From a phage, in sequence record PV806337.1: 64,000 nucleotides of DNA; one strand, 5' to 3'. Below are positions 46,670 to 62,232 of this stretch, one piece after another (within the stretch, counting starts at the first letter, position 1; every line of letters begins with the position of its first letter). The notes beneath the pieces are model-generated. The model was given only the letters and a program-made list of their open reading frames with translations, did not search any database and was not told the DNA's origin. The position numbers and the translations under genes were made by a program.

Positions 46670-47127
46670 CAGCACTACAACAACTACAGAATTACTGGTT
46701 TGATAACCAATTTAACGATCTTTTCATCCAGTTGTTTGTCGAAACGAACGGACGCTTCAACTACCGATTCTTTAACAAGTTTCACGAAACAAAATTCTCG
46801 CATACAGAAATTAATGCAGCGATCCAAGACCTAACTGGTTCTAAAGTAGTTCAATATCGTGAAGTAGACTTTACACCAGATTGTTTTGGGTTTGAGTTGT
46901 TTAAGAAAGCATATAAATTTGGTAAGTTTGAGGATGCTCGTCAATGGGTTCATGATTTCTGGTACAACACTGATATTGTTCCTAGTCGTGTACTGATTCT
47001 TAACTGGATTGCTAAACAACATCCGCCTAAAGCTCAATCATCCTTCTTACCAACTGACACAGGAAACCTCTACCATGACAGAAAAGAAAAATCCATTATT
47101 GGAGCAGATGAAGGAGTGGGAGAGTAA
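46666..47127 (+). CDS. hypothetical protein
   Basis: ORF track 153 aa. Confidence 0.55.
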   Translation: MTALQQLQNYWFDNQFNDLFIQLFVETNGRFNYRFFNKFHETKFSHTEINAAIQDLTGSKVVQYREVDFTPDCFGFELFKKAYKFGKFEDARQWVHDFWYNTDIVPSRVLILNWIAKQHPPKAQSSFLPTDTGNLYHDRKEKSIIGADEGVGE

Positions 47128-47446
47128 TATTGAATCTGGTCTAGTAGACGGAGAAGATATTGTTAACTCCATGCTAGAAGTAACAGTAGATAATATTAAT
47201 CCTATTTTGGCCAAAGAAACCTCCGATCTTATAGGACTCTCTAGCACATTTGATTCTTTAGCTAAATTAGCCTTAGATGACGAAGAGATAACCAAAGAAG
47301 ATCTCGCCTCAGCTATGAATATGGCTATTAACGCTTACATTGGTAAACGTACCGATGAACTTGGTAAACAGATCAATAAGCGTGATGCTACGCTAGGTCT
47401 TATGGAAACGGCCACTATGTTAAGAAGTGGTAAACAACTTCATTAA
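47075..47446 (+). CDS. hypothetical acidic protein
   Basis: ATG 47075 inside track ORF 47009-47446; terminator 47454-47481. Confidence 0.5.
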   Translation: MTEKKNPLLEQMKEWESNIESGLVDGEDIVNSMLEVTVDNINPILAKETSDLIGLSSTFDSLAKLALDDEEITKEDLASAMNMAINAYIGKRTDELGKQINKRDATLGLMETATMLRSGKQLH

Positions 47447-47453
47447 TTCTAGA

Positions 47454-47481
47454 GGCCAGGACTTAATTGTTCTGGCCTTTT
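47454..47481 (+). terminator. rho-independent terminator
   Basis: Hairpin GGCCAGGAC...TTCTGGCC then TTTTG. Confidence 0.65.
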
Positions 47482-47505
47482 GAGTACATATAAAAGGAGA
47501 CTATA

Positions 47506-47739
47506 GTGGAAATTGTATTAGTTATTCTTGCAATAGCACTATTATTCGCAATCAGCGTATCTATTAAAAAGACTCGTGATCTTAATAGGACTATAGATGA
47601 TAACAGAAAACTACGTGGTGAAAAGGCTAGGCTTAACCTACAACATGAAGCTCTGAAGTTATTTGTAGTTCAGGGCAATAGAAACCATACTCCTGAAGAC
47701 TTTATTAAACAGCTTAAAAAGCACTTAGGGCTCAAATAA
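47506..47739 (+). CDS. small membrane-anchored protein
   Basis: ORF track 77 aa; AAGGAG RBS. Confidence 0.5.
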   Translation: MEIVLVILAIALLFAISVSIKKTRDLNRTIDDNRKLRGEKARLNLQHEALKLFVVQGNRNHTPEDFIKQLKKHLGLK

Positions 47740-47924
47740 TGGAAACTCTTTTTCTTTTAATGCTCGTAGGTTCTCTGTTACTAATACTAGCACTTCTACT
47801 AATCTGCAATATTCTTAATAATAAGAATCTAGAGCTAAAGTGTGAGAACCAAATCCTTAACCGTGAACTTAAACAATATAATCTAGCAGCCTATAAACTG
47901 TTAGACAAACTGGAGAATAAATAA
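47739..47924 (+). CDS. small membrane protein
   Basis: ORF track 61 aa. Confidence 0.45.
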   Translation: METLFLLMLVGSLLLILALLLICNILNNKNLELKCENQILNRELKQYNLAAYKLLDKLENK

Positions 47925-48526
47925 TGACTTTTAATGCGCAACAATCTATTCAAGTAGTGCCAGATCATGAACTGAACACATGGGATTATAGCTTTAAAGA
48001 TTTAACCGCTACTGTACAATTTAAATCTATGAAGCTAACATTTGCACACACTGACCTTAGAGCATGTAAAGGTCTTGAGGATAAGCTCGAAGATGCTCGC
48101 AAGATTTTTGGTAAGGCTCGCATCCCAGCTGATAATCTAATTAACGCATTAATCGATGCAGGGTACAAACTTGTGAAGACTGAGGTGAACCGCCCTAGTA
48201 CTCCAGTGACTATTAGAGATCCGTGGCAGTCAGGGACAATCGCAATGCTGAATAAATCATCGGATTTGCACAATGTTCCTTGTGGGGGTGTGATAAGTAG
48301 TACGCAGTCATATAAGTTTGGGGAAGATTACGGCCCTTCTGTACAGTTGAAACATACTCAAGAAGCTTTTGAATCTGATATGCGAAGCGTAGCACCTGCG
48401 GATGCTGAAGGTTTTAGAAGTCCCATCTATGTTACTCACTTTAATAATCTTAGGCCTGGGAGTATAAATGATGCTATCCTTGAAGCGTTGGGAGCTGCTA
48501 TTAATGAAGATAAGAGGGGTAATTAA
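47924..48526 (+). CDS. hypothetical protein
   Basis: ORF track 200 aa; internal reverse ORFs judged spurious. Confidence 0.55.
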   Translation: MTFNAQQSIQVVPDHELNTWDYSFKDLTATVQFKSMKLTFAHTDLRACKGLEDKLEDARKIFGKARIPADNLINALIDAGYKLVKTEVNRPSTPVTIRDPWQSGTIAMLNKSSDLHNVPCGGVISSTQSYKFGEDYGPSVQLKHTQEAFESDMRSVAPADAEGFRSPIYVTHFNNLRPGSINDAILEALGAAINEDKRGN

Positions 48527-49251
48527 TGAGTATAAAAAAGAATTTAGCAGAGATTATTAAGTTAGCTAGAGCTTGTAATGGAAAATGTGTTTCTCAGCTT
48601 AATGAACTAGAAGCACATGCAGTAGCATTTTGTGCAGAGTTTTATCCTGCATACCTTAATGCTAGTGGGCAACCTAAATATAATAAGGATGCCGAAGAAG
48701 TTACGTTAGCTCCTTCATATATTAGCTTGCGTCGTTTAATTCAAACCGTTGATCCTACTATTAAAGGATTCTCAGCAGATTCATTCCACGTCTTTGCAGA
48801 TAAAGAACTCCCGTATTTTAAAGAAGGAAATGCAAAGTCATGTTTAGAATGTTATCCTAATATACTGATGATTCCTCAAAAGCAATGTAAATACGATCAT
48901 CTTCCTAGACTTACAAAGAAAGTAGCACCACCTTATTCTTCTCTATCTGAATTAAAGCTAGGAATTGTATCTACACTTGCGCAGATTCATCTAAGTATAG
49001 TTGACGACTCAACAACATCTAACCCTATTCTAGATGCTGCTCACTTTGAAATTTTACGTGATCCTGAACAAGCTAGAAAAGTTGCTAAGTCTGTTAAGTT
49101 TGATATATCAACAATTCTTGACACTAAACAAGAAACTAGACCTAGAGGAAGTGTAGATTATTCTGCGCTAAATTCCGAGTCATCTTACTTAGCAACATTC
49201 CTTTTCATGGCGTCAAAAGGGGTTATTCTAAAGGTTAATAAAGATGGATGA
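48526..49251 (+). CDS. hypothetical protein
   Basis: ORF track 241 aa. Confidence 0.55.
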   Translation: MSIKKNLAEIIKLARACNGKCVSQLNELEAHAVAFCAEFYPAYLNASGQPKYNKDAEEVTLAPSYISLRRLIQTVDPTIKGFSADSFHVFADKELPYFKEGNAKSCLECYPNILMIPQKQCKYDHLPRLTKKVAPPYSSLSELKLGIVSTLAQIHLSIVDDSTTSNPILDAAHFEILRDPEQARKVAKSVKFDISTILDTKQETRPRGSVDYSALNSESSYLATFLFMASKGVILKVNKDG

Positions 49252-49972
49252 TTTACGTGCTGAAATTAATAAAAAGTTACGAGAGGAAGCCCGGAGGTTT
49301 CCTCTTAAAAACTTTTTGAAGTCAAATGGCTCTACTAATATAACGAAGATTAGGCAACTTCACCCTGACTTCCAACAAGAGGCCTTAAACCTTATCTTTA
49401 TTAGGAAAGCTTTAAAAGTCCAGAAAGAAGAGTATGGGTATGAAAGAGTTAATTATAAGACAGCCAATCAGTTAGTAGAGATATGGTGCTATAAACATAA
49501 AGGATACTTTATGCAAACTGCTAGATCTCACCTAGATGGGCACGGTTGTTTACAATGTGCTAGGGAAAGCAACCTAAATACACCTATCGAGAAACCGGAG
49601 GTAGAAGAAGATGTTCAGTCCCCCACATATCTCTATATCTTCTCTAATAAAGATCAGTCTAGGAAGAAATTAAAGACAAAGATTGGGGTTTCTAGAGAGC
49701 CACATCAAAGGTTTAAGAATCTAGAGTATGATAAATTGCGTGTGCCGGGTTTTGAAGATATGGAAGTATTTGGTATCTACCAGTATAAGAAAGGATCGAA
49801 AGAACTCGCTTACAAAATAGAACACCAAGCACATAAATTTTTCGAGAATAAATTTGCTAACCATTATAAATTCGATGGAGCAAAAGAGATATTCAACATT
49901 AAAGCTGTAGAGGCAGAAGAATATCTATTAAGTCAAGGTTGCATAAAAATTTACCCAACTCCAAACTCATGA
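49244..49972 (+). CDS. zinc-ribbon + T5orf172 (GIY-YIG-like) domain protein
   Basis: ORF track 242 aa; GHGCLQC ribbon; YLYIFSN..KIGVS..FDGAKEIF pattern. Confidence 0.6.
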   Translation: MDDLRAEINKKLREEARRFPLKNFLKSNGSTNITKIRQLHPDFQQEALNLIFIRKALKVQKEEYGYERVNYKTANQLVEIWCYKHKGYFMQTARSHLDGHGCLQCARESNLNTPIEKPEVEEDVQSPTYLYIFSNKDQSRKKLKTKIGVSREPHQRFKNLEYDKLRVPGFEDMEVFGIYQYKKGSKELAYKIEHQAHKFFENKFANHYKFDGAKEIFNIKAVEAEEYLLSQGCIKIYPTPNS

Positions 49973-49999
49973 CAAAAATTTAAAAGTAACGAAATCTGC

Positions 50000-50029
50000 T
50001 TGACATTCGTGAGAATAATGTGTTATAAT
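50000..50029 (+). promoter_or_regulatory. consensus sigma70 promoter (TTGACA-18-TATAAT) with no ORF downstream
   Basis: TTGACA 50000-50005, TATAAT 50024-50029; next about 300 nt lack a credible ORF and lead into the repeat field. Confidence 0.6.
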
Positions 50030-50369
50030 AATCTCATAGATTAAAAACATCAACTTGTTTTTACCTCTAGGCCGTAGATTTACATCATTCCTCGTAGGAA
50101 AACACTTGATGACGGTTCTGCTCGCAGGTTCTCGTCAATTGTTCTTCCACACCGAGACTTAGGAGGATGTATCAAATCGCACGCGCCTAGAGGGGCTAAC
50201 TCTCATGAAATGGGGGTATATTTACTTTTAAATAACTAAAAAATATTTAAAGGCAATATCTGTGTTCAAGATGATACACCTGTTGCCGCTCTCCATCTCT
50301 AGGATCACATACACTTTCCTAGAAACTCCAGAGTTCTCACTAAATACTCACGAAATATCACACTTCTAG

Positions 50370-50442
50370 TGGGCGGTTCTCCTAAGTTTCTAGGAACATA
50401 TACTAGGCGGTTAATATAGGGCGGTTAATATAGGGCGGTTAT
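50370..50442. repeat. tandem GGCGGTT-containing direct repeats (TAGGGCGGTTAATA x3 plus variant)
   Basis: Copies at 50405-50417, 50417-50430, 50431-50442, variant 50370-50380. Confidence 0.8.
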
Positions 50443-50485
50443 TTCTAGGAGACATTTTTCCAAAACACATTTCCAGAAATTACTA

Positions 50486-51085
50486 TCGGATTTGCACATT
50501 GTGTTTCTAGAAATTTATGGTCGGATTTGCACAAACGCCTAAGTTTTTAGGAACTCTTACTCCCCTGAAAATGGCAGCATTATTTCGGGCCGAAGGCCCA
50601 TAATTGCCTGAGTTTTTAGAGCCACAGAAATTTTCACTTGTCAAGCTATTTTGCCCCATTTTGCTAATAAAATTTTACTTTATCTCCACTAATCTCAAAT
50701 TAACCCAAATCTTCTCAACTCTTCCCCAAAAACGCAGCAAATCAGGCGTTGCACGCCACCCATGCTGCTCCTCCAGTTTCTCCCCTTATTTTCTCTCGCT
50801 CTCTCATCTTCTCCTCAAACCCATACAATCACACACCCTCTCATCGAAGTCACAAAAATCTTGTCGGATTCGCACATCTTAATCCTAGAAAAACCGTGTC
50901 GGATTTGCACATACCCCACAGGATTCGAACGCAGTTCGTGATTGCTGGAGTTTTTAGGAAAATTCATTGTCGGATTTGCACACTATAAAAATTTTTCGGG
51001 TCGGATTTGCACACTACCAAAAATTGTCGGATTTGCACACACACGCCCACGCGTAATCCATGGGGGCAAATGTCGGTTTTGCACA
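50486..51085. repeat. dispersed 14-bp direct repeat GTCGGATTTGCACA, 8 copies (injection-stop-signal-like region)
   Basis: Copies near 50486, 50520, 50863 (variant), 50898, 50969, 51000, 51026, 51072 (variant), irregular spacing. Confidence 0.8.
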
Positions 51086-51119
51086 AAAGCGCAGGGCAAT
51101 TGCCCTGCTCGCCTGAATG

Positions 51120-51300
51120 CGAATGATAATGAGAATGATTCTCATTTAAAAAGCGGAATGAGAATGATAATAATTCGCATTTAAGAATGGAAGTGAGAAT
51201 TATTCAGGAAGTGAAACGATTCTCATTTAAAAAGCAGAATGATTCTCATTTAGAAAGTGGAACGCAAATAATAGTGATTCGTATTTAAGAACGGAAGTGA
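51120..51300. repeat. palindromic repeat family (GAATGAGAATGATTCTCATTTAAAAAGC-like)
   Basis: Several similar ~25-bp units, each a near-palindrome around GAGAATGATTCTC; further copy at 51623-51643. Confidence 0.7.
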
Positions 51301-51426
51301 GAAACACTATTATTTAAGTTATCCACAGACTTATTAACAGCACGATTTGACTTGACAGAATCCTAGCCATTTTGGGGTGTTATTAACAGACTTATCCACA
51401 GCTTATCCTACTGTATAAATATACAG
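51297..51426. repeat. left arm of ~130-bp imperfect inverted repeat with two DnaA-box motifs
   Basis: TTATCCACA at 51319-51327 and 51392-51400; ends in palindrome CTGTATAAATATACAG; reverse complement matches 55251-55380. Confidence 0.8.
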
Positions 51427-51794
51427 TATTCCTACGCAGTGAATAATTCTAATATAGCGTTAAAACGTCCTAGATCGCATTCTAACGCGTTTAATTTTGG
51501 TGGAGATACTAAAACAAGGGCAAAATTGGAGGAGGCTTGAAAATTAGTTAGCTCGCTAACGATCACACAAGGCGACACGTAACACCCTAATCATTAGCAG
51601 GCTAACCATCGCGGGCGCGGTCAAATGAGAATGATTCTCATTTGAGAATTGGGGGCACTTCCCGATAGTTGCGCCCCGTGATTATTATAGTAGCGGGCAA
51701 CCGTTACGCTTTGCCCACTCCCGCCACTCATCTTGATGCCTAGACTTGCGACGGCGTACTAAAAACCGCTTGTACCAGTGATTAAACCATCGTT

Positions 51795-51998
51795 TCATAA
51801 ACCCTCCTCCGGTAGTCGATGCGTGATCTTCTCCTCCTCCCCGTAGGAATCCACCAAATACTGATAATAACCATCGTGATCATAAATCACTTTATCATAT
51901 TCGCCCCGCTCGACCGCTTGCCGATTCTCCGGCGTATCTGGCACGTAAAAAACATCAACCATTGTACTGATTTTGGTTACAATAATTTTATTGCTCAT
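51795..51998 (-). CDS. hypothetical protein (pre-early block)
   Basis: ORF track 67 aa in GC-richer block between inverted repeats. Confidence 0.45.
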   Translation of the reverse strand: MSNKIIVTKISTMVDVFYVPDTPENRQAVERGEYDKVIYDHDGYYQYLVDSYGEEEKITHRLPEEGL

Positions 51999-52221
51999 AA
52001 TAACGCTCCGTTATTAAAAATTACCATATATTCCCGGCCAAATTTTACTAGTAACATAAGTTACTATTCCTGCCGTAATTATGCTATAAACTACTAATAA
52101 GGTAAACATTAAACCAGACATAATAACTCCTAGTAAATATATTTTTGCCAATGGTGGCGAACGTTGTCGCCACCAGCGGAATCATTAGCTGCCTTAACAT
52201 TACCAACGAAAATATATAATC

Positions 52222-52581
52222 TCATTGCGCCACCTTTCGAAATGCTGTTTCAATACTTTCCGCAGTTGATTGAATATACACGCCTTTCATTATCAAGCGC
52301 TCAGTGCATACCTTACGGAAAATATTAATAAAATCCTCTTCATTTTCCGCGATTAATGCCTCACCCATAACCTGAACGTCACAAGATGCAAAGGTCAAAA
52401 ATTGAAATGCTAGTTCACGGGCAACGACCGCATTAATTTTATAATGCGCCTTTCCCTCATAAATATTAATAACGCCCTTATAAGCTGGGGAAAGCTGGTT
52501 TAAATAGTTTGCTAATAATGCCGGACGGCAATTAGCAACAAAGCGATTGCCTTCATAAATTATCATTTGCATAGCTCCCAA
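52222..52581 (-). CDS. hypothetical protein (pre-early block)
   Basis: ORF track 119 aa. Confidence 0.5.
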   Translation of the reverse strand: MGAMQMIIYEGNRFVANCRPALLANYLNQLSPAYKGVINIYEGKAHYKINAVVARELAFQFLTFASCDVQVMGEALIAENEEDFINIFRKVCTERLIMKGVYIQSTAESIETAFRKVAQ

Positions 52582-52681
52582 ATAGTTCCGCCGATGATCA
52601 TTAGCTGACTAATAATTATCAGAATAAAACCAATTGAAGGCAGGACGCCCCAAAAACGAAAAGCCGTTTTAATTTGCTGAA

Positions 52682-52894
52682 TCATAATACCCCACGAAAA
52701 GCAGCGTAAAAGGTGGCAAAATGTTTAACTGTTTCAGCTATCACGTTGCCGCGCTTATCAAATTTTTTCTCGGTAACACGAAAGGCATTTTTGTTACGTG
52801 CTACATATTCGATTTTACAATCTTCCCGCTCGAACGTGTTAACATCCACCAGCTTAAAGCCTTTCGAACGTGCAAGGGAAACGTTGCGGATCAT
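52682..52894 (-). CDS. hypothetical protein (pre-early block)
   Basis: ORF track 70 aa; overlapping forward ORFs judged spurious. Confidence 0.45.
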   Translation of the reverse strand: MIRNVSLARSKGFKLVDVNTFEREDCKIEYVARNKNAFRVTEKKFDKRGNVIAETVKHFATFYAAFRGVL

Positions 52895-53095
52895 TTTTAT
52901 TCTCCTTTACTAGTCATGCAGCCCAGCAGATAAGAAAACGCAGCAATGCCAGCGCCAATAATAACAGCGTGAACGCCGAAAGCTATCGCAAATAACGATA
53001 AAATAGCGCCCAAGATACCCGCTAAAATAGATCGAAAAATAACCATTTGTGATAGCCTCCTAGTTATCGGGGCGAAAGTAACGCCCCGTTATTAA

Positions 53096-53404
53096 TTACA
53101 TTAAAACAATTTTAGCGGCTTGTTTTTTAGTGCAATGTTCAGCTTTCAGGGTATCCAGTAAAAAGCCAGCCGTTTGCTGATCGATTTTATCGGCGTTATA
53201 TAGTTCCTGAATGGTATTATAAGTTTTAGCAATGCCGAACTCCTGCACCATTTCATAGATGACAGCACGATTAGATACCCAGCCTTGCGCGGTAAACAGA
53301 TGACTAGCAGAAGAATAAGCAACCATTTTAAGCCTCCAAATTTTTGGGAAAATTTTCAATCCACCGTTTTGGTGTAAAAGCATTATAACAAAAAAGGCCA
53401 CCAT
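53096..53404 (-). CDS. hypothetical protein (pre-early block)
   Basis: ORF track 102 aa. Confidence 0.5.
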   Translation of the reverse strand: MVAFFVIMLLHQNGGLKIFPKIWRLKMVAYSSASHLFTAQGWVSNRAVIYEMVQEFGIAKTYNTIQELYNADKIDQQTAGFLLDTLKAEHCTKKQAAKIVLM

Positions 53405-53431
53405 AAAAGGCGACCTTTACAAAACTTTACA

Positions 53432-53926
53432 TTAGACTACTTGCAGGGATTCAATATTGAAACATCGTTTCAATTCGTCATGCAAAACAGCGTATTCATC
53501 CCATCGGGTACTATCAGGAATATAAACAAGCTGTTTTAATCGGTTTGCGTATATTACCGCTTTGTTATCAATTATCTCGACGCCACCATATTTAATAATT
53601 AATTTCATGACGGAATTAATAGGATCGCCGCCGTTTACATATGTGCCGGATTTACTTAGCTGATAATGATAAAGGCTTGCATATACGTTTTCATTTTCAT
53701 ACCATTCGCCAGTTTCTTCGTCTTCATAGCCATCGCTACCAAAACGAGAAGCATTATCAATAGCCATTTCATGAGCGAAAGCGTCCAGATCCGTACCAGC
53801 AGGAACAAAGTATTCTTCGGTGTTCCCTTCTCCGCAATAGCCAGTATGACAATCGACTAAAATGATCATATCATGTTTAGCCGTGCTCACTTCTCCTAGC
53901 GAGAAGCCGTATTTTTCCTCAGCCAT
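53432..53926 (-). CDS. hypothetical acidic protein (pre-early block)
   Basis: ORF track 164 aa. Confidence 0.55.
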   Translation of the reverse strand: MAEEKYGFSLGEVSTAKHDMIILVDCHTGYCGEGNTEEYFVPAGTDLDAFAHEMAIDNASRFGSDGYEDEETGEWYENENVYASLYHYQLSKSGTYVNGGDPINSVMKLIIKYGGVEIIDNKAVIYANRLKQLVYIPDSTRWDEYAVLHDELKRCFNIESLQVV

Positions 53927-53991
53927 TAGTTAGCCTCCTATTAATTAACAAGGGAATAGTAAAGTGGGGAAATAATCCCCACTAAATATTA

Positions 53992-54984
53992 TTACTCGAT
54001 TTCGGTGCTAGTGGTAAAAGTAGAAATATCAATACCTTTCACCATTTCATCAATCATTTCAGCGATGTTAAAACTTTGCACCATTTCCAGCATTGCCGCT
54101 TCCATAGCCGCCCCTGCTACCGCTTTCGCTTTCTGGTTAGTCGGTGCGTACTGGTCAACCGCTACACTTAGCAGGTTAGCAATCACTACTCGACCAATCG
54201 GCGTATCAATATAGCCTTTAATCATGAACGGTGCTTTTTTAGCCGCTACTTTCGTGATTTGAGTCAGTGCAATTTTACCCGCTTCCAGTTTTGCAGCATT
54301 TACAACAGCAGACTTATTGGCGGCAACGATATTAGCGATCTTGGTCATGGTATTTTTTCCTTTGTTTTCAGTAGTTTGAGTGTTAACGCTTTGAGTGTTA
54401 GAATTTACAGCATGTTTTTCGATGTTGTCAATAGGCTGATCTTCCTCCTTCCAGAAAGTAAAACCAGCCTCCTCTATTAAATCATTATATACATACGGGT
54501 ATAATTCCGACGGTAGCAAAAAATTACCGTTATCATCAAAAGCCATTATAGCCGCAAAACGATACCCGTGATAATCTGATCGATTCCACCCAATTGATAA
54601 ATAACGCCAAAATGAATCGAGAAAATTTTCTACGTCATAAAGATCCTTATCATAAGGCTCATAATTTTCTATCGTGAAAACTTCTAAGCCCATCCCCGCA
54701 TCATAGGCTTTTACTGTACTGCCTTTCACTATAATAAAATCAGTATCTGGCCCTCGACTAGTAAGCAAGTGAGATTCCTGATTATATAAAACAAGCGTTG
54801 CCCCTTGATTATATAACGGTAGAAAACTATTCATATTATAAGCATCGTAATCATCAAGAAAATTACGATGAATAGTTTCAATATTGAAAACAAAATGTTT
54901 AATGCTGGTTGTTCTGCTACCGTCCAGCAGGTTACGCAGCGCGCCTTTTAAGACGGTTGCGTTATCTGGTTTATACAGCCTCAT
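53992..54984 (-). CDS. hypothetical protein (pre-early block)
   Basis: ORF track 330 aa. Confidence 0.55.
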   Translation of the reverse strand: MRLYKPDNATVLKGALRNLLDGSRTTSIKHFVFNIETIHRNFLDDYDAYNMNSFLPLYNQGATLVLYNQESHLLTSRGPDTDFIIVKGSTVKAYDAGMGLEVFTIENYEPYDKDLYDVENFLDSFWRYLSIGWNRSDYHGYRFAAIMAFDDNGNFLLPSELYPYVYNDLIEEAGFTFWKEEDQPIDNIEKHAVNSNTQSVNTQTTENKGKNTMTKIANIVAANKSAVVNAAKLEAGKIALTQITKVAAKKAPFMIKGYIDTPIGRVVIANLLSVAVDQYAPTNQKAKAVAGAAMEAAMLEMVQSFNIAEMIDEMVKGIDISTFTTSTEIE

Positions 54985-55250
54985 TTGTTGGCCTCCCTCG
55001 TTAATCGGTGAGTGAATGATAAAGGTAATTTTCTAGCATGGGCAAATATTATTTTACCTTTTTATTTTCCTTGCCTAACGCCTAGTTTTATGCTAACCGC
55101 GCAGCGGTGCAATAAAGAGCAAAACACGGCGAAGCCACCAGGGCGACGCGTTGCGGCTTTACTTTAACATTACCCTACAGCATTTTGCTCGTTAGAAAGC
55201 GATTTAGGCCGCTTAAAATTGATTGCAGTTGTTAACACTACCTTTTTACC

Positions 55251-55380
55251 CTGTATATTTATACAGTAGGATAACCTGTGGATAAGTCTGTGTAAAAGTC
55301 CTTATATCGCCGCCTATCGTGTCAAGTCAAAAAGTGCTGTGGATAACTTTGTGTATAACTTAAATGATAGTGGTTCTCAC
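55251..55380. repeat. right arm of ~130-bp imperfect inverted repeat with two DnaA-box motifs
   Basis: TGTGGATAA at 55277-55285 and 55338-55346; starts with CTGTATATTTATACAG; inner ~40 bp nearly identical to left arm, outer part diverged. Confidence 0.8.
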
Positions 55381-55900
55381 TTAGCTAGATGATTTCTTAT
55401 AGTTATTATTTCTCATTAATTTATATGTATATTATATATCATGAAATAGTTAGTTGGCTAATGAGATTTTTCCGTGATTAATAGTCTGCTAATAATTCAG
55501 GTCGTTACAATCCACCAGCATGATTATCATTCTAGCAATTATTAGTCTGCTATCTTTCCGATGCATACTAACAAATAAAAGTCAATTAATTTATTTCATA
55601 AAATAAGTAGTTATCCACTGGAAAATAAAAGTCAAGTGGATAACTAGGAAAATTTCATTTTTGCTTTTGGGGATAAGTTATCAACAAGGCTAGAATGCGC
55701 CTAAAACGCTCCAGAACGCAATAAAGTTTTTAGCCATCCCATCATAAGGGGATAAGCCGTTTATCGTTACCACGAGCTTTTTAGATTTTGTCAAGTAGGG
55801 CAAAGCAAATATAAATGAAAAAATTACTTGCCTATTTGCTTTATTTTGTGGTATTCGCGCGCCCGTTTCTTTTAATTTTAGGCCGTCGCCGCACGGTGTC
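55380..55900. promoter_or_regulatory. AT-rich non-coding control region with further DnaA-box-like motifs upstream of pre-early genes
   Basis: TTATCCACT (~55610) and GTGGATAAC (~55637) in inverted orientation; repeated AATAAAAGTCAA; no ORF. Confidence 0.45.
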
Positions 55901-56090
55901 CGGTGAGTTTTACCTTTACATTTCTTTACAAAAATAAGGTTGCGCCATTTTCGGGAATCCCCTATTATTTATCTCGTAGGGCGGCAATGACGAACTACAC
56001 GGCGGGAAGTTTACCGCCACGCTCTTTAAAAATTGGGTATATCTTAAAGCCTATCGGCGGTAAACTTATTCATTATAAGGAATCGACGAT

Positions 56091-56294
56091 ATGAAACAAA
56101 CGCTTTTGATCACTGGCAAGCCTAGCAAGGCACTAGATAGCAAAACAAAAAACTTGTTGACAGTAGCGCAAAATTCTGTAAAATGGCGATTCAAGCAATA
56201 TTTGCAAGGTCGCCAGCAAGGTTTAGAAATGATCTGGCGAAACATTATGATTGACCTGAAGGAAAATCATAAAAAATCTCAAAAAATTGTTTGA
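56091..56294 (+). CDS. hypothetical small protein
   Basis: ORF track 67 aa. Confidence 0.4.
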   Translation: MKQTLLITGKPSKALDSKTKNLLTVAQNSVKWRFKQYLQGRQQGLEMIWRNIMIDLKENHKKSQKIV

Positions 56295-56520
56295 CAGCCT
56301 AGCCGATAGGTTTTAAGATGTACCCAGTTCGAAAAGAGCGATAACTTGATAAAATTTGACGGTCGGTGCTTACCATAATGCATCCCGCCCCCTAACGGGA
56401 TATAGCGGCCTACGTGGAGTTCTTTAAATTGATTAAACTGGCGAGCGGATTGTTACTTATTACCTGCTACTTTCTAGCAGGTAATGCGGAACAATCCCCA
56501 AATAACTAGGAGTTTATATT

Positions 56521-56772
56521 ATGCAAAACGTTATTACCGCGCCTAAAATTGGTCAATCCGTTTTTATTCCTTTCGTTACTAAAACGGACGAATTAACCGG
56601 AAAAGCCGAACGTATTAAAGGTGCGGCGCTTATGCCGTTCGATACAATCGACGCGGTATACACTGAAAATGAACGCAGTAACAACGGCAAGCCCGTTTTT
56701 AGCGTTCGCGTTAAATCCGGCGATGTTGTAAAGGTTGTTCAACGCAACGAAAAATGGGAAGCTGTTTTATAA
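56521..56772 (+). CDS. hypothetical protein
   Basis: ORF track 83 aa with AGGAG RBS. Confidence 0.5.
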   Translation: MQNVITAPKIGQSVFIPFVTKTDELTGKAERIKGAALMPFDTIDAVYTENERSNNGKPVFSVRVKSGDVVKVVQRNEKWEAVL

Positions 56773-56870
56773 TTTAGTGCTAACTTTATATCCCTCTTAT
56801 TTCAGGGGGATATAACGATTAACATTAAGTTAATCTAATCCCTTAAATTAAACTAATAGGAGTTTTTACC

Positions 56871-57278
56871 ATGACTAACGCAAAAACCGCAAAATTCGCA
56901 TGGAATGAAGAAAACACTCAGAAAGCTGTTACCATGTACCAGCAGTTAATCAACGAAAACGGTTTAGATTTTGCAAATAGCGACGGCCTGAAAGAGATTG
57001 CAAAAGCAGTAGGCGCGGCCTCCCCCGTATCCGTTCGCTCAAAATTGACCAGTGCAAAAGCCTATCAAAAAAGCGATAAGCCGCGTAAAGTTGGCGGCGG
57101 TAGCTCTGTGCGTAAAGCTCACTATGTGCGCGTTATCGCTAAACATGCTATTGATTCCGGCATTATCAAAGACGCCGATGATTTGGCAAGCCTTGAAAGT
57201 GCAAAACTTGAAACGCTGGACGCAGTAGCGCAATTGTTAGGCGTTGCCGATGAAGTAAAACAGGCCGCAGGCGAATAA
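56871..57278 (+). CDS. hypothetical protein
   Basis: ORF track 135 aa with AGGAG RBS; terminator hairpin 57291-57311. Confidence 0.55.
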   Translation: MTNAKTAKFAWNEENTQKAVTMYQQLINENGLDFANSDGLKEIAKAVGAASPVSVRSKLTSAKAYQKSDKPRKVGGGSSVRKAHYVRVIAKHAIDSGIIKDADDLASLESAKLETLDAVAQLLGVADEVKQAAGE

Positions 57279-57290
57279 TAGTTATATCTT

Positions 57291-57315
57291 GCCCCCTTTT
57301 AGTGAGGGGGCAATA
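57291..57315 (+). terminator. rho-independent terminator-like hairpin
   Basis: GCCCCCTTTTAGTGAGGGGGC palindrome after 56871-57278 gene. Confidence 0.5.
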
Positions 57316-57368
57316 ATATAACTGTTTAGCGATAGTTATTTTCTTCCCTTAAATCAGGAGTTTTAAAA

Positions 57369-57566
57369 ATGGTTTTCTTCCCTACTGAATCTTTAATTCT
57401 AGGCTTATTTATTATGGCGGCCTCTCTATTATTCGCTTATTTTCAAAATGATTTAGATTCATATTATTTTAAACGCAAATCTAAATTGGCAAAGCGTTTG
57501 GGCTTACTTTGTTTTATCGCTGCCGTTGCTTGTGGTGTTAGTTCTAGCCTAGTGCCTTTAAATTAA
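57369..57566 (+). CDS. small membrane protein
   Basis: ORF track 65 aa. Confidence 0.45.
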   Translation: MVFFPTESLILGLFIMAASLLFAYFQNDLDSYYFKRKSKLAKRLGLLCFIAAVACGVSSSLVPLN

Positions 57567-57656
57567 TGTTGCAAATTATAACGCCTATTGTTCGAGGCGT
57601 TATATTTGGCAATATTGCCGTTATTAACCTAATCCCTTTAATGGAGTTTTATTACT

Positions 57657-59327
57657 ATGATTATTTCCGCAGAAAAACAAACCGTTATCCTGAAAATGGC
57701 CGCTGACTTTAATTTCTATGGTAAACGTCTGCGCGCTACTAAGCTGGAAGTCTGCGACGATATATCAAAAGCGGTTTACGATACTACAAAACACTCCACC
57801 GCCATTTGTGATTGGTTGGAAGCAAATAAACCAGCGAAACCAAAAGCGGCAAAAGTAGCAAAAGCCATTAAAAATGATGAGCGCCCAGAAGCGGCTGGGA
57901 TTGTTTCTAGTACGGTGGAGCAATGGGAAGTAAAACAAGGTAAACGCTTTATTATTACATCGATTCAGAATAATACTTTCCCACATAAAAACTTTTTAGC
58001 CTCACTGGAGCAATTTGCTAAATATATCGGTGCTGATTTGCTTGTTTCTAAGTATATTTATAATAAAAACGGTTTTCAAAATGGGGAAGGTGCGGATGGA
58101 ATCAAATATGATTCCGCGTTCGATAAATATATTTGCAGCAAAAACGTGTTTTTAAATAACCGCCGCTTTGCTTTTATGGCTGAAATTAATGTTTTGCCAA
58201 CCGCAGATTATCCGCTTTCTGGATTCGCTGAAACTGCAACGGCGCTTAATCTTGAAGGTCTGGCAATTGGTCACGCCAAAATTACCGCCGAAAGCGTGCC
58301 AGCTTTAAAAGGTGAAGTAGTGCGCCGCATGTATTCAACCGGAACGGCAACGCTCAAAAACTACATTCAGCAGAAAGCAGGGCAAAAAGCCGAAGCGCTG
58401 CATAATTTCGGTGCGCTTATTGTTGAGTTCGACGAGGACGGGGAATTTTTTGTTCGCCAGCTTGAAACAATGGACGAAAGCGGGGTGTTTTATGATCTGA
58501 ACGTTTGCGCTACTCCTGCCGGATGCTATGAGACATCGGGGCATGTTTTAGGCTTGCAGTATGGCGATATTCACGCCGAAAAATTAGATGAGGAGTGCGC
58601 CGCCGCATCTTGGGGGCATGGTGATACTTATGGGCTAGTAGATATTCTTAAACCAAAATATCAGTTTGTGCATGACGTTCATGATTTTACATCCCGCAAT
58701 CATCATAACCGCGCATCCGGTGTATTCCTAGCGAAACAATATGCCGCCGGACGTGATAAAGTTCTGGATGATCTTATCGATACGGGGCGCGTACTGGAAT
58801 CAATGGAGCGCGATTTTAGTCAAACAATCATTGTTGAATCGAATCACGATTTGGCGCTATCCCGTTGGCTTGATGATCGTAATGCTAACATCAAAGACGA
58901 TCCAGCAAACGCCGAGTTATATCACCGCCTGAATGCTGCAATTTACGCGGCAATCGGTGAACACGACGAAACGTTTAACGTGCTAGATTATGCGTTGCGC
59001 AAGGTTGCAGGTTGTGAATTTAACGCCATTTTCCTGACCACTGATCAATCTTTCAAGATTGCAGGCATTGAATGCGGCGTACACGGTCACAATGGCATTA
59101 ACGGCAGTCGTGGCAATCCTAAACAATTTAAAAAATTGGGCAAGTTAAACACGGGGCATACCCATACCGCCAGCATTTATGGCGGCGTATATACCGCTGG
59201 CGTAGCTGGTAGTCTGGATATGGGCTACAACGTTGGCGCGTCAAGTTGGACGCAGACGCATTTAATTACCTATGCAAACGGTCAACGCACTTTGATCGAC
59301 TTTAAAAACGGTAAATTCTTTGCGTAA
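57657..59327 (+). CDS. A1: pre-early A1-like protein (metallophosphoesterase-type)
   Basis: ORF track 556 aa (matches recalled size of T5 A1); GDIHAEK and GHNGINGSRGN phosphoesterase-like motifs; next to A2- and dmp-like genes. Confidence 0.6.
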   Translation: MIISAEKQTVILKMAADFNFYGKRLRATKLEVCDDISKAVYDTTKHSTAICDWLEANKPAKPKAAKVAKAIKNDERPEAAGIVSSTVEQWEVKQGKRFIITSIQNNTFPHKNFLASLEQFAKYIGADLLVSKYIYNKNGFQNGEGADGIKYDSAFDKYICSKNVFLNNRRFAFMAEINVLPTADYPLSGFAETATALNLEGLAIGHAKITAESVPALKGEVVRRMYSTGTATLKNYIQQKAGQKAEALHNFGALIVEFDEDGEFFVRQLETMDESGVFYDLNVCATPAGCYETSGHVLGLQYGDIHAEKLDEECAAASWGHGDTYGLVDILKPKYQFVHDVHDFTSRNHHNRASGVFLAKQYAAGRDKVLDDLIDTGRVLESMERDFSQTIIVESNHDLALSRWLDDRNANIKDDPANAELYHRLNAAIYAAIGEHDETFNVLDYALRKVAGCEFNAIFLTTDQSFKIAGIECGVHGHNGINGSRGNPKQFKKLGKLNTGHTHTASIYGGVYTAGVAGSLDMGYNVGASSWTQTHLITYANGQRTLIDFKNGKFFA

Positions 59328-59383
59328 TTAAATTATTTCCCTAGCGGCTTGAAATATAGCCGCTATTACAGGAGTCACAAAAA

Positions 59384-59641
59384 ATGAAAGTTACATTACC
59401 CAAAACATTGGACGAAAAAGTATTCATTTCACCGGATGAAATGGAATCTGATAAAGTTTACAGCTTCGGGCCTATCCTAGCCGCTAAAACTAATACTGAT
59501 GGTATTATTTCCGTCGATTCCCGTGATAATGATGTTGTTCCTTTTGATGACGATGGCGCTTTTTATGAGTGGCTAAGCGATAATAATTTACCCGTAAACG
59601 GTGAATTAACGCCGTACCAGATGCAGATTATTATCAAATAA
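59384..59641 (+). CDS. hypothetical acidic protein
   Basis: ORF track 85 aa. Confidence 0.5.
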   Translation: MKVTLPKTLDEKVFISPDEMESDKVYSFGPILAAKTNTDGIISVDSRDNDVVPFDDDGAFYEWLSDNNLPVNGELTPYQMQIIIK

Positions 59642-59679
59642 ATTAAATCCATTATTAAACTAATTGGGGTTTTATAAAT

Positions 59680-60072
59680 ATGAAAAAGCAAAATATTCCA
59701 TTCGATCGCGCTCAATCTTCCATTGTTCTGGTTTATTCTAATGGCGAACGTTACCACGTCGAGGCGGGGCACGTTATTGATGAACTACTAGACTTTAATG
59801 ACGCTTTGCAGGTTACTACCTTTGCCTATACGCAAGGCCGCGCAAGTAGTTACATTAAGGCCGCAGGCGTTTATGTTGACACGGTGAAACAAGAAACGAT
59901 TATCATCGACGCCGTAAAATCCGGCCTAGCCTTTGCAGTTGTCGCGCCTTGCCCCGCTTGCCTTGATGATCAATTGATCAGCGCAAAAGTATATACTTGT
60001 GCGGGGATTCGTTCCAGCGTATCCGGTGAAGATGTTAGTTTTATTGCCGATGCGTTGGCTTATGGTCTTTAA
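59680..60072 (+). CDS. A2: pre-early A2-like protein
   Basis: ORF track 130 aa; position between A1-like and dmp-like genes; assignment by synteny and size only. Confidence 0.45.
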   Translation: MKKQNIPFDRAQSSIVLVYSNGERYHVEAGHVIDELLDFNDALQVTTFAYTQGRASSYIKAAGVYVDTVKQETIIIDAVKSGLAFAVVAPCPACLDDQLISAKVYTCAGIRSSVSGEDVSFIADALAYGL

Positions 60073-60151
60073 TAGTTAATTTATTATTACCCGCTTATAA
60101 ATAGCGGGTAATGCTGAATAAACTAAATCCCTTTAACGGAGAATGTAACAA

Positions 60152-60886: not shown

Positions 60887-60902
60887 TAATTAAAGTTGAA
60901 AT

Positions 60903-60937
60903 AGTCACGGTGTGTAATGATAACATGCCGTGACTAT
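60903..60937. terminator. hairpin between convergent dmp-like and reverse small genes
   Basis: TAGTCACGG...CCGTGACTA inverted repeat. Confidence 0.5.
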
Positions 60938-61037
60938 TAGCCTGCTAAGTACCGGGCGGTAATGAGACTCATTCTCATCTGGAGGACCACTGGACACACC
61001 TCCATGTGTAATCTTATGAAATTTGGCAAAAGTCAAA

Positions 61038-61283
61038 TTAGCGCATAGAAGGGTCATCAAACCTGTGTTCTGGTCTGAACTCACGGAATCTCTTTCGCGA
61101 CGCCCGAGATCCATCCGACCACTCCCGCTCAAACTCCGCACGTTTCTCATCAAACTTCCGCTCCCTTTCCGCAATCTCCCGCGATACTTCCGCAGTATAC
61201 TTACGATGCTTGTTAATAGCCGCAGTCATTCCGAAAACTCCCGCGAGTACCCCGATAATAAAAGCAATTACAATACTAAACAT
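61038..61283 (-). CDS. small membrane protein
   Basis: ORF track 81 aa; N-terminal TM then charged tail. Confidence 0.45.
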   Translation of the reverse strand: MFSIVIAFIIGVLAGVFGMTAAINKHRKYTAEVSREIAERERKFDEKRAEFEREWSDGSRASRKRFREFRPEHRFDDPSMR

Positions 61284-61470
61284 CTAATTCCCTCTCAATT
61301 TGCAGAATACGGGTACTATCACAACGTTGGAGTTCTACTAATTTTTCTATGGCAAATTGTTGCTGCTTTACCTGGGCCTCTAGAGTTTTTAGGCGAACAT
61401 ACGCGGTGTAAGAAATAATGAAAACTGCCCAGACTAGTATTACTATTAGTGTAGCTACCACTTCCATCAT
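61276..61470 (-). CDS. small membrane protein
   Basis: ORF track 64 aa; N-terminal TM. Confidence 0.45.
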   Translation of the reverse strand: MMEVVATLIVILVWAVFIISYTAYVRLKTLEAQVKQQQFAIEKLVELQRCDSTRILQIERELDV

Positions 61471-62147: not shown

Positions 62148-62232
62148 ATTTATCTCTCCATTTCTAATTTATGAATCTATTATAGCAAAATAGAGGGATG
62201 AAAGCAAATACATTTTTATAATAGGAGATTAT

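What the first reader, a model, noticed from the sequence alone, without database searches (positions are those of the whole stretch)
50300..51700. Gene-free repeat field resembling the T5 injection stop signal
About 1.4 kb without a credible ORF holds three repeat families: GGCGGTT tandem units (50370-50442), eight copies of GTCGGATTTGCACA (50486-51085), and palindromic GAGAATGATTCTC units (51120-51300 and 51623-51643). It sits at the boundary between the early genes and the pre-early block, where T5-like phages carry the locus that pauses DNA entry after first-step transfer. The palindromes look like operator sites for a dimeric DNA-binding protein, possibly the A2-like product encoded about 8 kb away.
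Basis: partly seen in the sequence, partly recalled or inferred. Interest (0 to 1): 0.6.

Follow-up and report, generated by a model that had tools for sequence, protein, structure and literature searches.

The report
Known T5 injection-stop repeat region
This gene-free, repeat-packed stretch is the direct counterpart of the long-known "injection stop signal" region at the inner end of phage T5's terminal repeat, so it is a rediscovery of an annotated locus whose mechanism is still unsolved.

Summary
Window 50300-51700 has no conserved ORF and holds all three repeat families at the stated coordinates, far above chance. The window is a T5-like phage (Tequintavirus). The field is collinear with T5's annotated "injection stop signal (iss)", which Davison calls Repeat Region 3. 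The palindromes lie in the DRC/DRE units. The GGCGGTT units also exist in T5.

- a 132-nt inverted repeat with paired DnaA boxes, whose partner lies 3.8 kb away
- T5's "palindrome D", which matches the LexA SOS-box consensus at 19 of 20 positions
- the 7.9% nick motif
- the terminal-repeat boundary at 50619, which puts 50300-50618 outside first-step-transfer DNA

The "A2-like" ORF (59680-60072) is the T5.002 orthologue. The true A2 is at 56871-57278.

Verdict: already known and of low interest as a discovery.

Residual leads: host-type LexA- and Fur-like sites conserved from E. coli to Vibrio phages; DRD copies flanking the genome-end cut site; and a structured small-RNA candidate at 50036-50226.

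The parts
50372..50441 (+). GGCGGTT units x4; three form a perfect 14-nt tandem (GGCGGTTAATATAG) at 50406-50441. They lie outside the terminal repeat. The same units are present in T5 but carry no feature in AY587007.
50485..50533 (+). Two DRD copies (ATCGGATTTGCACA, GTCGGATTTGCACA) in unique DNA just outside the terminal repeat. They correspond to T5 DRD 7-8.
50587..50599 (.). Near-invariant GC hairpin GGGCC-GAA-GGCCC, 20 nt outside the terminal-repeat boundary.
50619..50657 (.). Inner boundary of the terminal repeat (first repeat base 50619) and the most conserved block of the field, GAGCCACAGAAATTTTCACTTGTCAAGCTATTTTGCCCC. The homologous block sits at the annotated boundary in Pectobacterium phage My1.
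50690..50860 (+). Polypyrimidine tract (pyrimidine fraction up to 0.73, tied for highest in the window). It includes the equivalents of T5 direct repeats A2/A3.
50863..51085 (+). Six DRD copies inside the terminal repeat (T5 DRD 1-6). The invariant core is TCGGATTYGCACA, all copies share one orientation, and the flanks are not conserved. The last copy contains a consensus DnaA box, TTTTGCACA.
51086..51108 (+). AAA|GCGC motif at the position of T5 'major single-stranded nick 1, 7.9%' (between 51088 and 51089), followed by the hairpin GCAGGGCAATTGCCCTGC (T5 palindrome J). Invariant in 15 of 16 relatives.
51116..51303 (+). DRC/DRE units: two 68-nt repeats (51132-51199 and 51236-51303, 85%) built from about 20-nt units AATGATTCTCATTTAAAAAG.
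51295..51426 (.). Arm of a 132-nt inverted repeat (T5 IRC'-spacer-IRD'). It carries DnaA-type box pairs at 51319-51327/51331-51339 and 51380-51388/51392-51400; boxes within a pair are 3 nt apart and the pairs are 40 nt apart.
51409..51428 (.). TACTGTATAAATATACAGTA, which is T5 'palindrome D'. It matches the LexA SOS-box consensus at 19 of 20 positions. The CTGT/ACAG arms are conserved across five genera.
51547..51560 (-). Hairpin GTTAGC-TC-GCTAAC with a T-rich tail on the minus strand, at the place of T5's annotated rho-independent terminator. Likely end of the rightward pre-early operon.
51621..51645 (.). Perfect 25-bp palindrome TCAAATGAGAATGATTCTCATTTGA. The centre base flips G/C among relatives. 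Homologous sites in Eps7 and a Klebsiella phage match the Fur consensus at 17 of 19 positions.
55249..55382 (.). Partner arm of the inverted repeat (T5 Repeat Region 2, IRC-spacer-IRD). It has four consensus DnaA boxes (55277-55358, minus strand) and a second LexA-like box at 55249-55268.
56871..57278 (+). True A2 orthologue (135 aa, 99% identical to T5 A2).
57657..59327 (+). A1 orthologue (556 aa; PHROG 'DNA transfer protein').
59680..60072 (+). It is the orthologue of T5.002 (hypothetical protein), not A2.
60954..60995 (.). Outer end of the terminal repeat (last repeat base about 60995), preceded by GGGCGGTAA and GAGACTCATTCTC. The repeat therefore spans 50619-60995, about 10.38 kb, and the assembly holds one copy.

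Best explanation
The field is this phage's copy of the T5 injection-stop locus (iss; 'Repeat Region 3' of the terminal repeat). It is a conserved, non-coding, cis-acting region at the inner end of the roughly 10.4-kb terminal repeat.

Shown:
- It is orthologous, element by element, to the T5 region annotated as iss.
- It lies where T5's first-step transfer ends. T5's 7.9% nick maps to 51088/51089, and the 7.9% shear estimate maps to about 51139.

Inferred mechanism: the field is composite rather than one signal.
1. The promoter-distal part inside the repeat (51090-51650) is the candidate stop module. This part includes the DRC/DRE units, the 132-nt inverted-repeat arm with two DnaA-box pairs, and the abutting LexA-consensus palindrome; the arm is duplicated in inverted orientation 3.8 kb deeper in the repeat.
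2. No phage protein exists when entry halts. The pause is therefore most likely set by pre-existing host DNA-binding proteins assembling on these sites as they emerge. DnaA is Davison's proposal; LexA and perhaps Fur are suggested by the sequence.
3. The pause is then released by the A1/A2 complex made from the transferred DNA.
4. The DRD copies, the boundary block and the GGCGGTT units straddle the repeat boundary at 50619. They more probably serve genome-end formation and packaging than the stop itself.
For: Identity:
- 457 phage records match at 80-99%.
- The three-way alignment with T5 and Spc35 is collinear, with 82% mean column identity.
- T5 annotates iss, the LTR end and the nick here.
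- Every named T5 repeat (palD, DRB, DRC, palJ, nick1, DRD1-9, DRA2/3) has its counterpart in the window.
- A1 and A2 are present in the same repeat.

Constraint:
- The field is 85-100% conserved while its flanks are 30-60%, and its ORFs are not preserved.

Stop module:
- The 132-nt inverted repeat is there.
- There are 8 DnaA-type boxes in pairs 3 nt apart, as Davison reports for 25 phages.
- The composite DnaA-box pair + TTATCC + CTGTATA-N3-ATACAG is the invariant core from E. coli to Klebsiella, Pectobacterium and Vibrio phages.
- The LexA consensus match has an expected count of 0.00.

Host dependence:
- Ejection into FhuA proteoliposomes goes to completion in vitro, and phages using BtuB also pause (Davison 2020).

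End formation:
- The repeat boundary lies within the field in T5, MM-1, SIA3lw, Spc35 and My1, with DRD copies on both sides.
Against: - No experiment exists on this phage.
- Even in T5, no source I could read reports fine-mapping the stop by mutation, and the 7.9% estimate is coarse.
- The BF23 paper states that the exact iss position is undetermined for most phages.
- Cytoplasmic DNA-binding proteins would be expected to ratchet DNA inward rather than stop it, unless they are anchored. Davison invokes membrane-bound DnaA for this reason.
- No binding of DnaA, LexA, Fur or A2 to these sites has been shown.
- My1 has CTGG in one LexA-type arm.
- The split of roles between the stop module and the end-formation module is my inference.
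Confidence: 0.85

Rival explanations
1. One reading: the GAGAATGATTCTC palindromes are operators for the phage's dimeric DNA-binding protein A2. A2, made from first-step DNA, binds them, alone or with A1, to restart or control DNA entry.
For: - A2 is essential for second-step transfer and is a purified dimer that binds dsDNA and associates with A1 (Davison 2020; 2026 preprint).
- A2 is 99% conserved between this phage and T5.
- The 25-bp palindrome at 51621-51645 keeps its arms while its centre base flips G/C among relatives. That pattern fits recognition by a symmetric dimer.
Against:
- The accessible sources report no sequence specificity for A2.
- A2 has no Pfam or PDB relative that would suggest an operator-binding fold.
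- A2 cannot cause the stop, because it does not exist when entry halts. At best it acts in release.
- Only 2-3 of the 'units' are true palindromes, and the one at 51235 is not palindromic in most relatives.
Confidence: 0.2
2. The left half of the field is a genome-end (terminase recognition and cutting) signal rather than a stop signal. This half comprises the DRD copies, the boundary block at 50619-50657, the hairpin and the GGCGGTT units. The left genome end is injected first, so it should be packaged last. Packaging should therefore start at the right genome end, whose sequence is the inner end of the terminal repeat.
For: - The annotated repeat boundary falls inside the field in five phages of two subfamilies, always beside the block TTTTCAYTTGTCAA..TTTGCCCC.
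- This block is the most conserved part of the field, at 0.95-0.99.
- DRD is an asymmetric 13-14-mer in one orientation with variable spacing on both sides of the cut. There are 133 copies in 16 genomes, with an invariant core and free flanks. This resembles small-terminase binding arrays.
- GGGCGGT occurs only 4 times on the + strand of the window: 3 next to the inner boundary and 1 about 40 nt from the outer boundary.
Against: - No data on T5 terminase recognition were available to me.
- The packaging direction is inferred from the general last-in-first-out rule.
- No DRD copy lies at the outer boundary.
- This reading explains only part of the field and can coexist with a stop function.
Confidence: 0.35
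3. The field is a replication origin or plasmid-like iteron region: DnaA boxes plus iterons plus AT-rich DNA.
For: DnaA-box clusters, iteron-like direct repeats and AT-rich DRC units. Davison notes the resemblance to oriC.
Against: - T5 origins were mapped by electron microscopy near the centre of the genome, and replication genes are not expressed during first-step transfer (Davison 2020).
- The boxes are duplicated as an inverted repeat 3.8 kb apart, unlike known origins.
Confidence: 0.05
4. The field is a transcriptional control region. Its LexA-, Fur- and DnaA-type sites would be ordinary operators regulating pre-early promoters or a non-coding transcript, unrelated to DNA entry.
For: - The partner arm in Repeat Region 2 lies between the divergent pre-early operons.
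- Its LexA-like box overlaps the -10 of a 10/12 promoter-like site at 55232-55259.
- A terminator-type hairpin ends the rightward operon at 51547-51560.
Against: - No convincing promoter overlaps the LexA-like box or the palindromes in the field itself. The best sites score 9/12, and promoter-like hits reach only 17 against 8 expected over the whole 3-kb scan (49500-52500).
- This reading does not explain the DRD copies, the nick or the boundary.
Confidence: 0.15

Closest known systems
Bacteriophage T5 injection stop signal (iss) / Repeat Region 3 of the left terminal repeat (GenBank AY543070 misc_feature 9140-10149; AY587007 repeat features; Davison 2020, bioRxiv 10.1101/866236)
   Same: Same position at the inner end of the terminal repeat, between the last pre-early ORF and the early genes. 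The sequences are collinear. The same named elements appear in the same order: palD, DRB (DnaA-box pairs), DRC/DRE, palE-I, palJ, the nick-1 motif, DRD copies, DRA2/3 and the LTR end. The inverted partner lies in Repeat Region 2, and the repeat also carries A1 and A2.
   Different: Only small differences. There are 8 rather than 9 DRD copies in the array. All 8 DnaA-type boxes are present, whereas T5 has 7 according to Davison. The first ~100 nt at the outer repeat end differ. About 1.7 kb next to the field (two ORFs plus an RNA candidate) is absent from T5 and MM-1.
LexA operator (SOS box, TACTGTATATATATACAGTA) of Gammaproteobacteria
   Same: 51409-51428 matches 19 of 20 positions, and 55249-55268 matches 17 of 20 with CTGT-N8-ACAG intact. 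The expected count is 0.00. Variation among relatives spares CTGT/ACAG and falls in the centre and outer flanks.
   Different: It does not sit on a convincing promoter in the field. It is fused to tandem DnaA-type boxes. LexA binding is untested. T5 records annotate it only as 'palindrome D'.
Fur box (GATAATGATAATCATTATC)
   Same: 51125-51143 matches 16 of 19. The homologues of the 51621-51645 palindrome in Eps7 and a Klebsiella phage match 17 of 19. The expected count at 3 or fewer mismatches is 0.04 per window.
   Different: Phage SIA3lw shows no site at 4 or fewer mismatches. Binding is untested.
DnaA-box clusters such as E. coli oriC
   Same: There are consensus TTWTNCACA boxes in closely spaced pairs: 2 consensus plus 2 variant in the field and 4 consensus in the partner arm.
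   Different: Arranged as a 132-nt inverted repeat 3.8 kb apart. No origin function is reported here; T5 origins map elsewhere (Davison 2020).
Terminase recognition sites next to direct terminal repeats (for example T7 concatemer-junction / pac elements; comparison from general knowledge)
   Same: Arrays of short asymmetric repeats flank the point where the terminal repeat ends.
   Different: I found no experimental link between DRD or the boundary block and T5 terminase. There is no sequence similarity to T7 elements.

Membership tests
T5-type injection-stop locus (iss / Repeat Region 3) | Non-coding region at the inner end of a long direct terminal repeat, between the last pre-early ORF and the early genes | tested here: met
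   The terminal repeat spans 50619-60995. The pre-early ORF 51795-51998 and A1/A2/dmp lie on one side, and early-region ORFs on the other. The ORFs in the field are not conserved.
T5-type injection-stop locus (iss / Repeat Region 3) | Collinear sequence homology with the T5 region annotated as iss | tested here: met
   Alignment A1. T5 9140-10149 maps to window 51693-50689.
T5-type injection-stop locus (iss / Repeat Region 3) | About 131-bp IRD'-spacer-IRC' with DnaA/DnaA* boxes in pairs 3 bp apart, and an inverted partner (IRC-spacer-IRD) deeper in the repeat | tested here: met
   132-nt arms at 51295-51426 and 55251-55382, 80% complementary. Boxes at 51319/51331, 51380/51392 and 55277-55358.
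T5-type injection-stop locus (iss / Repeat Region 3) | Array of DRD repeats (TGTGCAAATCCGACA; 9 in T5), two ~66-bp DRE repeats, palindromes, and the palJ hairpin with the nick-1 motif | tested here: met
   8 DRD copies in the array. 68-nt repeats at 51132-51199 and 51236-51303. AAAGCGC plus GCAGGGCAATTGCCCTGC at 51086-51108. Whether a physical nick exists cannot be seen in sequence.
T5-type injection-stop locus (iss / Repeat Region 3) | A1 and A2 genes encoded on the same first-step DNA | tested here: met
   A1 at 57657-59327. A2 at 56871-57278, 99% identical to T5 A2.
T5-type injection-stop locus (iss / Repeat Region 3) | DNA entry actually pauses here until A1/A2 are made | not testable with these tools
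   Needs interrupted-infection mapping. It is inferred only from orthology.
LexA operator (SOS box) | CTGT-N8-ACAG palindrome with an AT-rich centre close to the 20-nt consensus | tested here: met
   19/20 at 51409-51428 and 17/20 at 55249-55268, with 0.00 expected. Conserved across genera.
LexA operator (SOS box) | Overlaps a promoter that it represses | tested here: inconclusive
   There is no convincing promoter at the 51409 copy. The 55249 copy overlaps the -10 of a 10/12 promoter-like site.
LexA operator (SOS box) | Bound by LexA | not testable with these tools
   Needs EMSA or ChIP.
Fur box | Close match to the 19-bp consensus | tested here: inconclusive
   16/19 at 51125-51143. 17/19 at homologous sites in Eps7 and a Klebsiella phage. 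The palindrome core in this window carries a symmetric G for T, and SIA3lw shows none.
Replication origin with DnaA boxes | DnaA-box cluster beside an unwinding element, at a mapped origin | not tested
   Boxes are present. I did not search for an unwinding element. Published origin mapping places T5 origins mid-genome (Davison 2020).
Terminase recognition / end-formation site | Lies at the genome-end cut site and is flanked by repeated asymmetric motifs | tested here: met
   The boundary is at 50619, with DRD copies on both sides. The arrangement and boundary block are the same in My1.
Terminase recognition / end-formation site | Bound or cut by the phage terminase | not testable with these tools
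   Needs biochemistry or end mapping of mutants.

The most novel reading that the evidence does not exclude
The conserved core of the injection-stop locus is a composite landing pad for host global regulators that are present before any phage protein is made. It consists of a near-consensus LexA SOS box (T5 'palindrome D') fused to tandem DnaA boxes and duplicated in inverted orientation 3.8 kb apart, with Fur-box-like palindromes beside it. On this reading LexA, and perhaps Fur, take part together with DnaA in halting or timing DNA entry. The DRD copies and boundary block are instead the terminase end-forming signal. The sources I could search or read mention neither the LexA nor the Fur resemblance. 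Heusterspreute 1987, Wang 2005 and Davison 2015 could not be read.
Probability: 0.2. Interest if true: 0.65.

Novelty: already known. Interest (0 to 1): 0.25.

Why it matters
How T5 stops its own DNA entry after about 8% of the genome, and how it restarts, has been open for more than 50 years. The locus itself is long known and annotated, so finding it again in a T5 relative adds nothing new. This re-examination does add testable handles:
- The stop-side core is conserved to the nucleotide from E. coli phages to Vibrio phages, and it reads as host LexA-, DnaA- and Fur-type sites. That points to simple host-mutant and ChIP experiments.
- The other half of the field brackets the genome-end cut site, which suggests the 'signal' is really two functions side by side.
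- The check also corrects a misassigned A2 gene.

Tried and rejected
- Rfam scan of 47000-55000 at E<=1: only a chance snoRNA hit outside the field.
- tRNA scan: none in the field.
- Coding potential: ORFs are not preserved and have no PHROG match.
- Pfam for A1, A2 and T5.002: no family.
- PDB sequence search for A2: nothing.
- Search for the T5 PN25-type promoter motif to place pre-early promoters. It only revealed many early-region promoters and none in the repeat, so it was uninformative for the field.
- Literature: no paper in the library links LexA or SOS boxes with T5 first-step DNA or Tequintavirus. Davison 2015 and Wang 2005 are not held, so I cannot exclude prior mention there.
- The 2026 T5 deletion study gave no information on non-coding deletions.
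- My provisional label 'DRA' for the GGCGGTT units was wrong. AY587007 shows that DRA2/3 are ATTTTGGGGAAGAGTTGAG-type repeats in the polypurine tract.
- Replication origin: considered and set aside on published origin mapping.
- I did not run a structure prediction or a large homology search for A2. They could not show site-specific binding.
Full report
**What is there**

- GTCGGATTTGCACA occurs 8 times (at most 1 mismatch) between 50485 and 51085, plus once at 48259. That is 9 matches against 0.30 expected, and no shuffle reached 9.
- GGCGGTT occurs at 50372, 50406, 50420 and 50434, the last three as a perfect 14-nt tandem.
- GAGAATGATTCTC is exact at 51131 and 51627 and has one mismatch at 51235. 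The site at 51621-51645 is a perfect 25-bp palindrome.
- The remaining 'palindromic units' in 51120-51300 are direct repeats of a roughly 20-nt unit (AATGATTCTCATTTAAAAAG), organised as two 68-nt repeats.

The stretch is truly non-coding.
- None of the mechanical ORFs is intact in all 16 aligned relatives, and the two longest are intact only in this window.
- None matches a PHROG family.
- There is no tRNA or Rfam match.

**Where it comes from**

The window is a T5-like phage. A 2-kb query around the field hits 457 phage records, mostly Salmonella and Escherichia Tequintavirus. The 571-bp core is 99.7% identical to phage MM-1.

Read as reverse complement, the field is collinear with T5 AY543070 from about 9300 to 10850. 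T5 annotates three relevant features:
- the left terminal repeat, 1-10219
- a misc_feature 'injection stop signal (iss)', 9140-10149
- a major nick at 9748/9749

These map to window 50619 (repeat end), 51693-50689 (iss) and 51088/51089 (nick).

The second T5 record, AY587007, names every repeat.
- The ~20-nt units are 'direct repeat C', with palindromes E-I.
- The hairpin GCAGGGCAATTGCCCTGC is palindrome J, next to 'major single-stranded nick 1, 7.9%'.
- The GGCGGTT units are present in T5 but carry no feature there.

Davison (bioRxiv 10.1101/866236) describes this as 'Repeat Region 3'. He finds it conserved in 25 T5-like phages and considers it the probable iss. The locus is therefore already known and annotated.

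1. A 132-nt inverted repeat has arms at 51295-51426 and 55251-55382. This is Davison's IRD'spacerIRC' / IRCspacerIRD. It carries eight DnaA-type boxes in pairs 3 nt apart: two consensus and two variant boxes in the field, and four consensus boxes in the partner arm.
2. Directly abutting the DnaA pair is TACTGTATAAATATACAGTA (51409-51428). T5 annotates it only as 'palindrome D'. It matches the LexA SOS-box consensus at 19 of 20 positions. A second copy at 55249-55268 keeps CTGT-N8-ACAG. The expected count is 0.00.
3. The nick motif AAA|GCGC and the palindrome J hairpin (51086-51108) are invariant in 15 of 16 relatives.
4. The terminal-repeat boundary lies inside the field at 50619. Annotations of T5, MM-1, SIA3lw and Spc35 agree. 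So 50300-50618, which holds all the GGCGGTT units and two DRD copies, is unique DNA and not first-step-transfer DNA. The outer boundary is at about 60995. The assembly carries one copy of a repeat of about 10.38 kb and then runs into the receptor-binding tail protein gene.

**Gene context and the A2 claim**

- A1 is at 57657-59327 and dmp at 60152-60886.
It has no similarity to A2.
- The real A2 is at 56871-57278 and is 99% identical to T5 A2.
- A2 is reported to be a dimeric dsDNA-binding protein that associates with A1 and is needed for second-step transfer (Davison 2020). A 2026 preprint still calls its mechanism unknown.
- A2 has no Pfam or PDB relative.
- A2 binding to the palindromes remains an untested idea. 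In any case A2 cannot cause the stop, because it is made only after the stop.

**Conservation**

- Across 16 distinct Tequintavirus sequences, 50450-51690 is 85-100% conserved per 20-nt bin. The flanks drop to 30-60%. This agrees with Davison's remark that the non-coding region is better kept than the neighbouring ORFs.
- The best-conserved blocks are the repeat boundary zone (50570-50730), two DRD copies (50990-51030), the nick/hairpin, and the inverted-repeat arm with the LexA-like box.
- Across five genera (Tequintavirus, Epseptimavirus, Sugarlandvirus, Myunavirus and the Vibrio Pogseptimavirus) the invariant core is the composite DnaA-type box - 3 nt - DnaA box - TTATCC - CTGTATA-N3-ATACAG.
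- Only My1 changes one arm, to CTGG.
- Among close relatives the centre of the LexA-like palindrome flips between AAA and TTT while the arms stay fixed.
- The 25-bp palindrome at 51621-51645 likewise keeps its arms while its centre flips G/C.
- Homologues of that palindrome in Eps7 and a Klebsiella phage match the Fur-box consensus at 17 of 19. 51125-51143 matches at 16 of 19, with 0.04 expected.
- In this window, however, the palindrome core carries a symmetric G where Fur sites have T, and one relative lacks a good match. I treat the Fur resemblance as a lead only.
- DRD has an invariant asymmetric core, TCGGATTYGCACA, with unconserved flanks (133 copies). It differs from a DnaA box at one position.

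**How it most likely works**

Shown: this is the orthologue of the T5 iss region and is under strong constraint.

Inferred:
1. The field combines two functions.
2. The repeat-internal part next to the nick (51090-51650) is the candidate stop module. T5's 7.9% shear estimate (9618 in AY587007, about 51139 here) falls in it.
3. Ejection is complete in vitro with receptor alone, and phages using other receptors also pause (Davison 2020). The stop therefore needs cell factors that exist before phage gene expression. The sequence offers DnaA (Davison's model), LexA and possibly Fur sites. A1/A2 then release the block.
4. The part that straddles 50619 more probably forms genome ends. This part comprises the DRD copies on both sides, the boundary block TTTTCAYTTGTCAA..TTTGCCCC and the hairpin.
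5. The same boundary block and DRD bracketing occur at the annotated repeat end of Pectobacterium phage My1.
6. By the usual last-in-first-out rule, packaging should begin at this end. That rule is general knowledge, not tested here.

A weakness of the host-factor model is that soluble DNA-binding proteins should help pull DNA in rather than stop it, unless they are anchored.

**Rivals**

- A2-operator model: possible for release, but not for the stop.
- Replication origin: contradicted by published origin mapping.
- Ordinary transcriptional control region: the Repeat Region 2 copy of the LexA-like box overlaps a promoter-like -10, but there is no convincing promoter in the field itself.

**Novelty**

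The locus, its repeats, its DnaA boxes and even 'palindrome D' are in GenBank records and in Davison's papers. No paper I could search mentions LexA, SOS boxes or the Fur protein in connection with T5 first-step DNA. Heusterspreute 1987, Wang 2005 and Davison 2015 were not readable. The finding as written is a correct rediscovery with one wrong gene assignment.

**Side observation**

Just outside the field there is a perfect sigma-70 promoter (50000-50029). It is followed by about 190 nt ending in a hairpin and a U-run. The transcript folds at -64.2 kcal/mol, with z = -5.8. It is 97-100% identical in most of 118 phage records, including Epseptimavirus genomes whose neighbouring DNA is only about 75% identical. 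Two diverged copies keep the outer stem and terminator and show 7 compensatory pairs. It has no Rfam match and is not annotated as RNA in the records I inspected.

Noticed in passing
window 50000-50230 (+): Candidate small RNA of about 190 nt. A perfect TTGACA-18-TATAAT promoter with an extended -10 is followed by a highly structured transcript (MFE -64.2 kcal/mol, z = -5.8) ending in a hairpin and a U-run. It is present in 118 phage records, mostly at 95% identity or more, even in Epseptimavirus. It is absent from T5 and MM-1. Diverged copies keep the outer stem and terminator and show 7 compensatory pairs. There is no Rfam match, and it is not annotated as RNA in the records inspected.
   Followed up: partly
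window 51409-51428 and 55249-55268: T5's 'palindrome D' matches the LexA SOS-box consensus at 19/20 positions (17/20 for the second copy). It is fused to DnaA-box pairs in both arms of the 132-nt inverted repeat. The arms are conserved in Escherichia, Salmonella, Klebsiella and Vibrio phages. The searchable literature does not mention LexA here.
   Followed up: partly
window 51125-51143, 51621-51645, 60758-60782: Fur-box-like sequences: 16/19 to the consensus, with 0.04 expected per window. Homologues of the 51621 palindrome reach 17/19 in Eps7 and a Klebsiella phage. One site lies in the 3' end of the dmp ORF near the outer repeat end.
   Followed up: partly
window 48259-48272 (+) and 48188-48195 (-): An extra DRD copy (ATCGGATTTGCACA) and a GGGCGGTT lie inside the early ORF 47924-48526, about 2.2 kb from the array. 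A solitary DRD copy at a similar distance is present in many T5-like contigs.
   Followed up: no
window 60954-60995: Near the outer end of the terminal repeat, GGGCGGTAA plus GAGACTCATTCTC resembles 51613-51645 (GGGCGCGGTCAAATGAGAATGATTCTC). T5 and MM-1 also carry AACCGCC about 35 nt inside their left end, although the first ~100 nt otherwise differ from this phage.
   Followed up: partly
window 48530-50200: About 1.7 kb is absent from the otherwise 97%-identical phage MM-1. It holds ORF 48526-49251, the HNH/homing-endonuclease-like ORF 49244-49972, and the RNA candidate. It looks like a mobile or variable insertion next to the repeat field.
   Followed up: no
window 50690-50860 (+): Polypyrimidine tract, almost free of G on the + strand. 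Its pyrimidine fraction of 0.73 ties for the most strand-biased 100 nt in the window. It is highly conserved and contains T5's DRA2/3 equivalents.
   Followed up: no
window 55232-55259 (+): Promoter-like site TTAACA-16-TATATT (10/12) whose -10 lies inside the second LexA-like box. It sits between the divergent pre-early operons.
   Followed up: no
window 1-47000, mostly + strand: The T5-type promoter upstream motif AAAATTnAnTTGCTT occurs 24 times against 4.2 expected, nearly all on the + strand of the early/tRNA region. There are 21 tRNA genes at 21497-33377.
   Followed up: no
window 60996-63990: The sequence runs from the outer end of the terminal repeat straight into right-end unique DNA (receptor-binding tail protein, 62233-63990). 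The assembly therefore holds a single, collapsed copy of the terminal repeat.
   Followed up: partly
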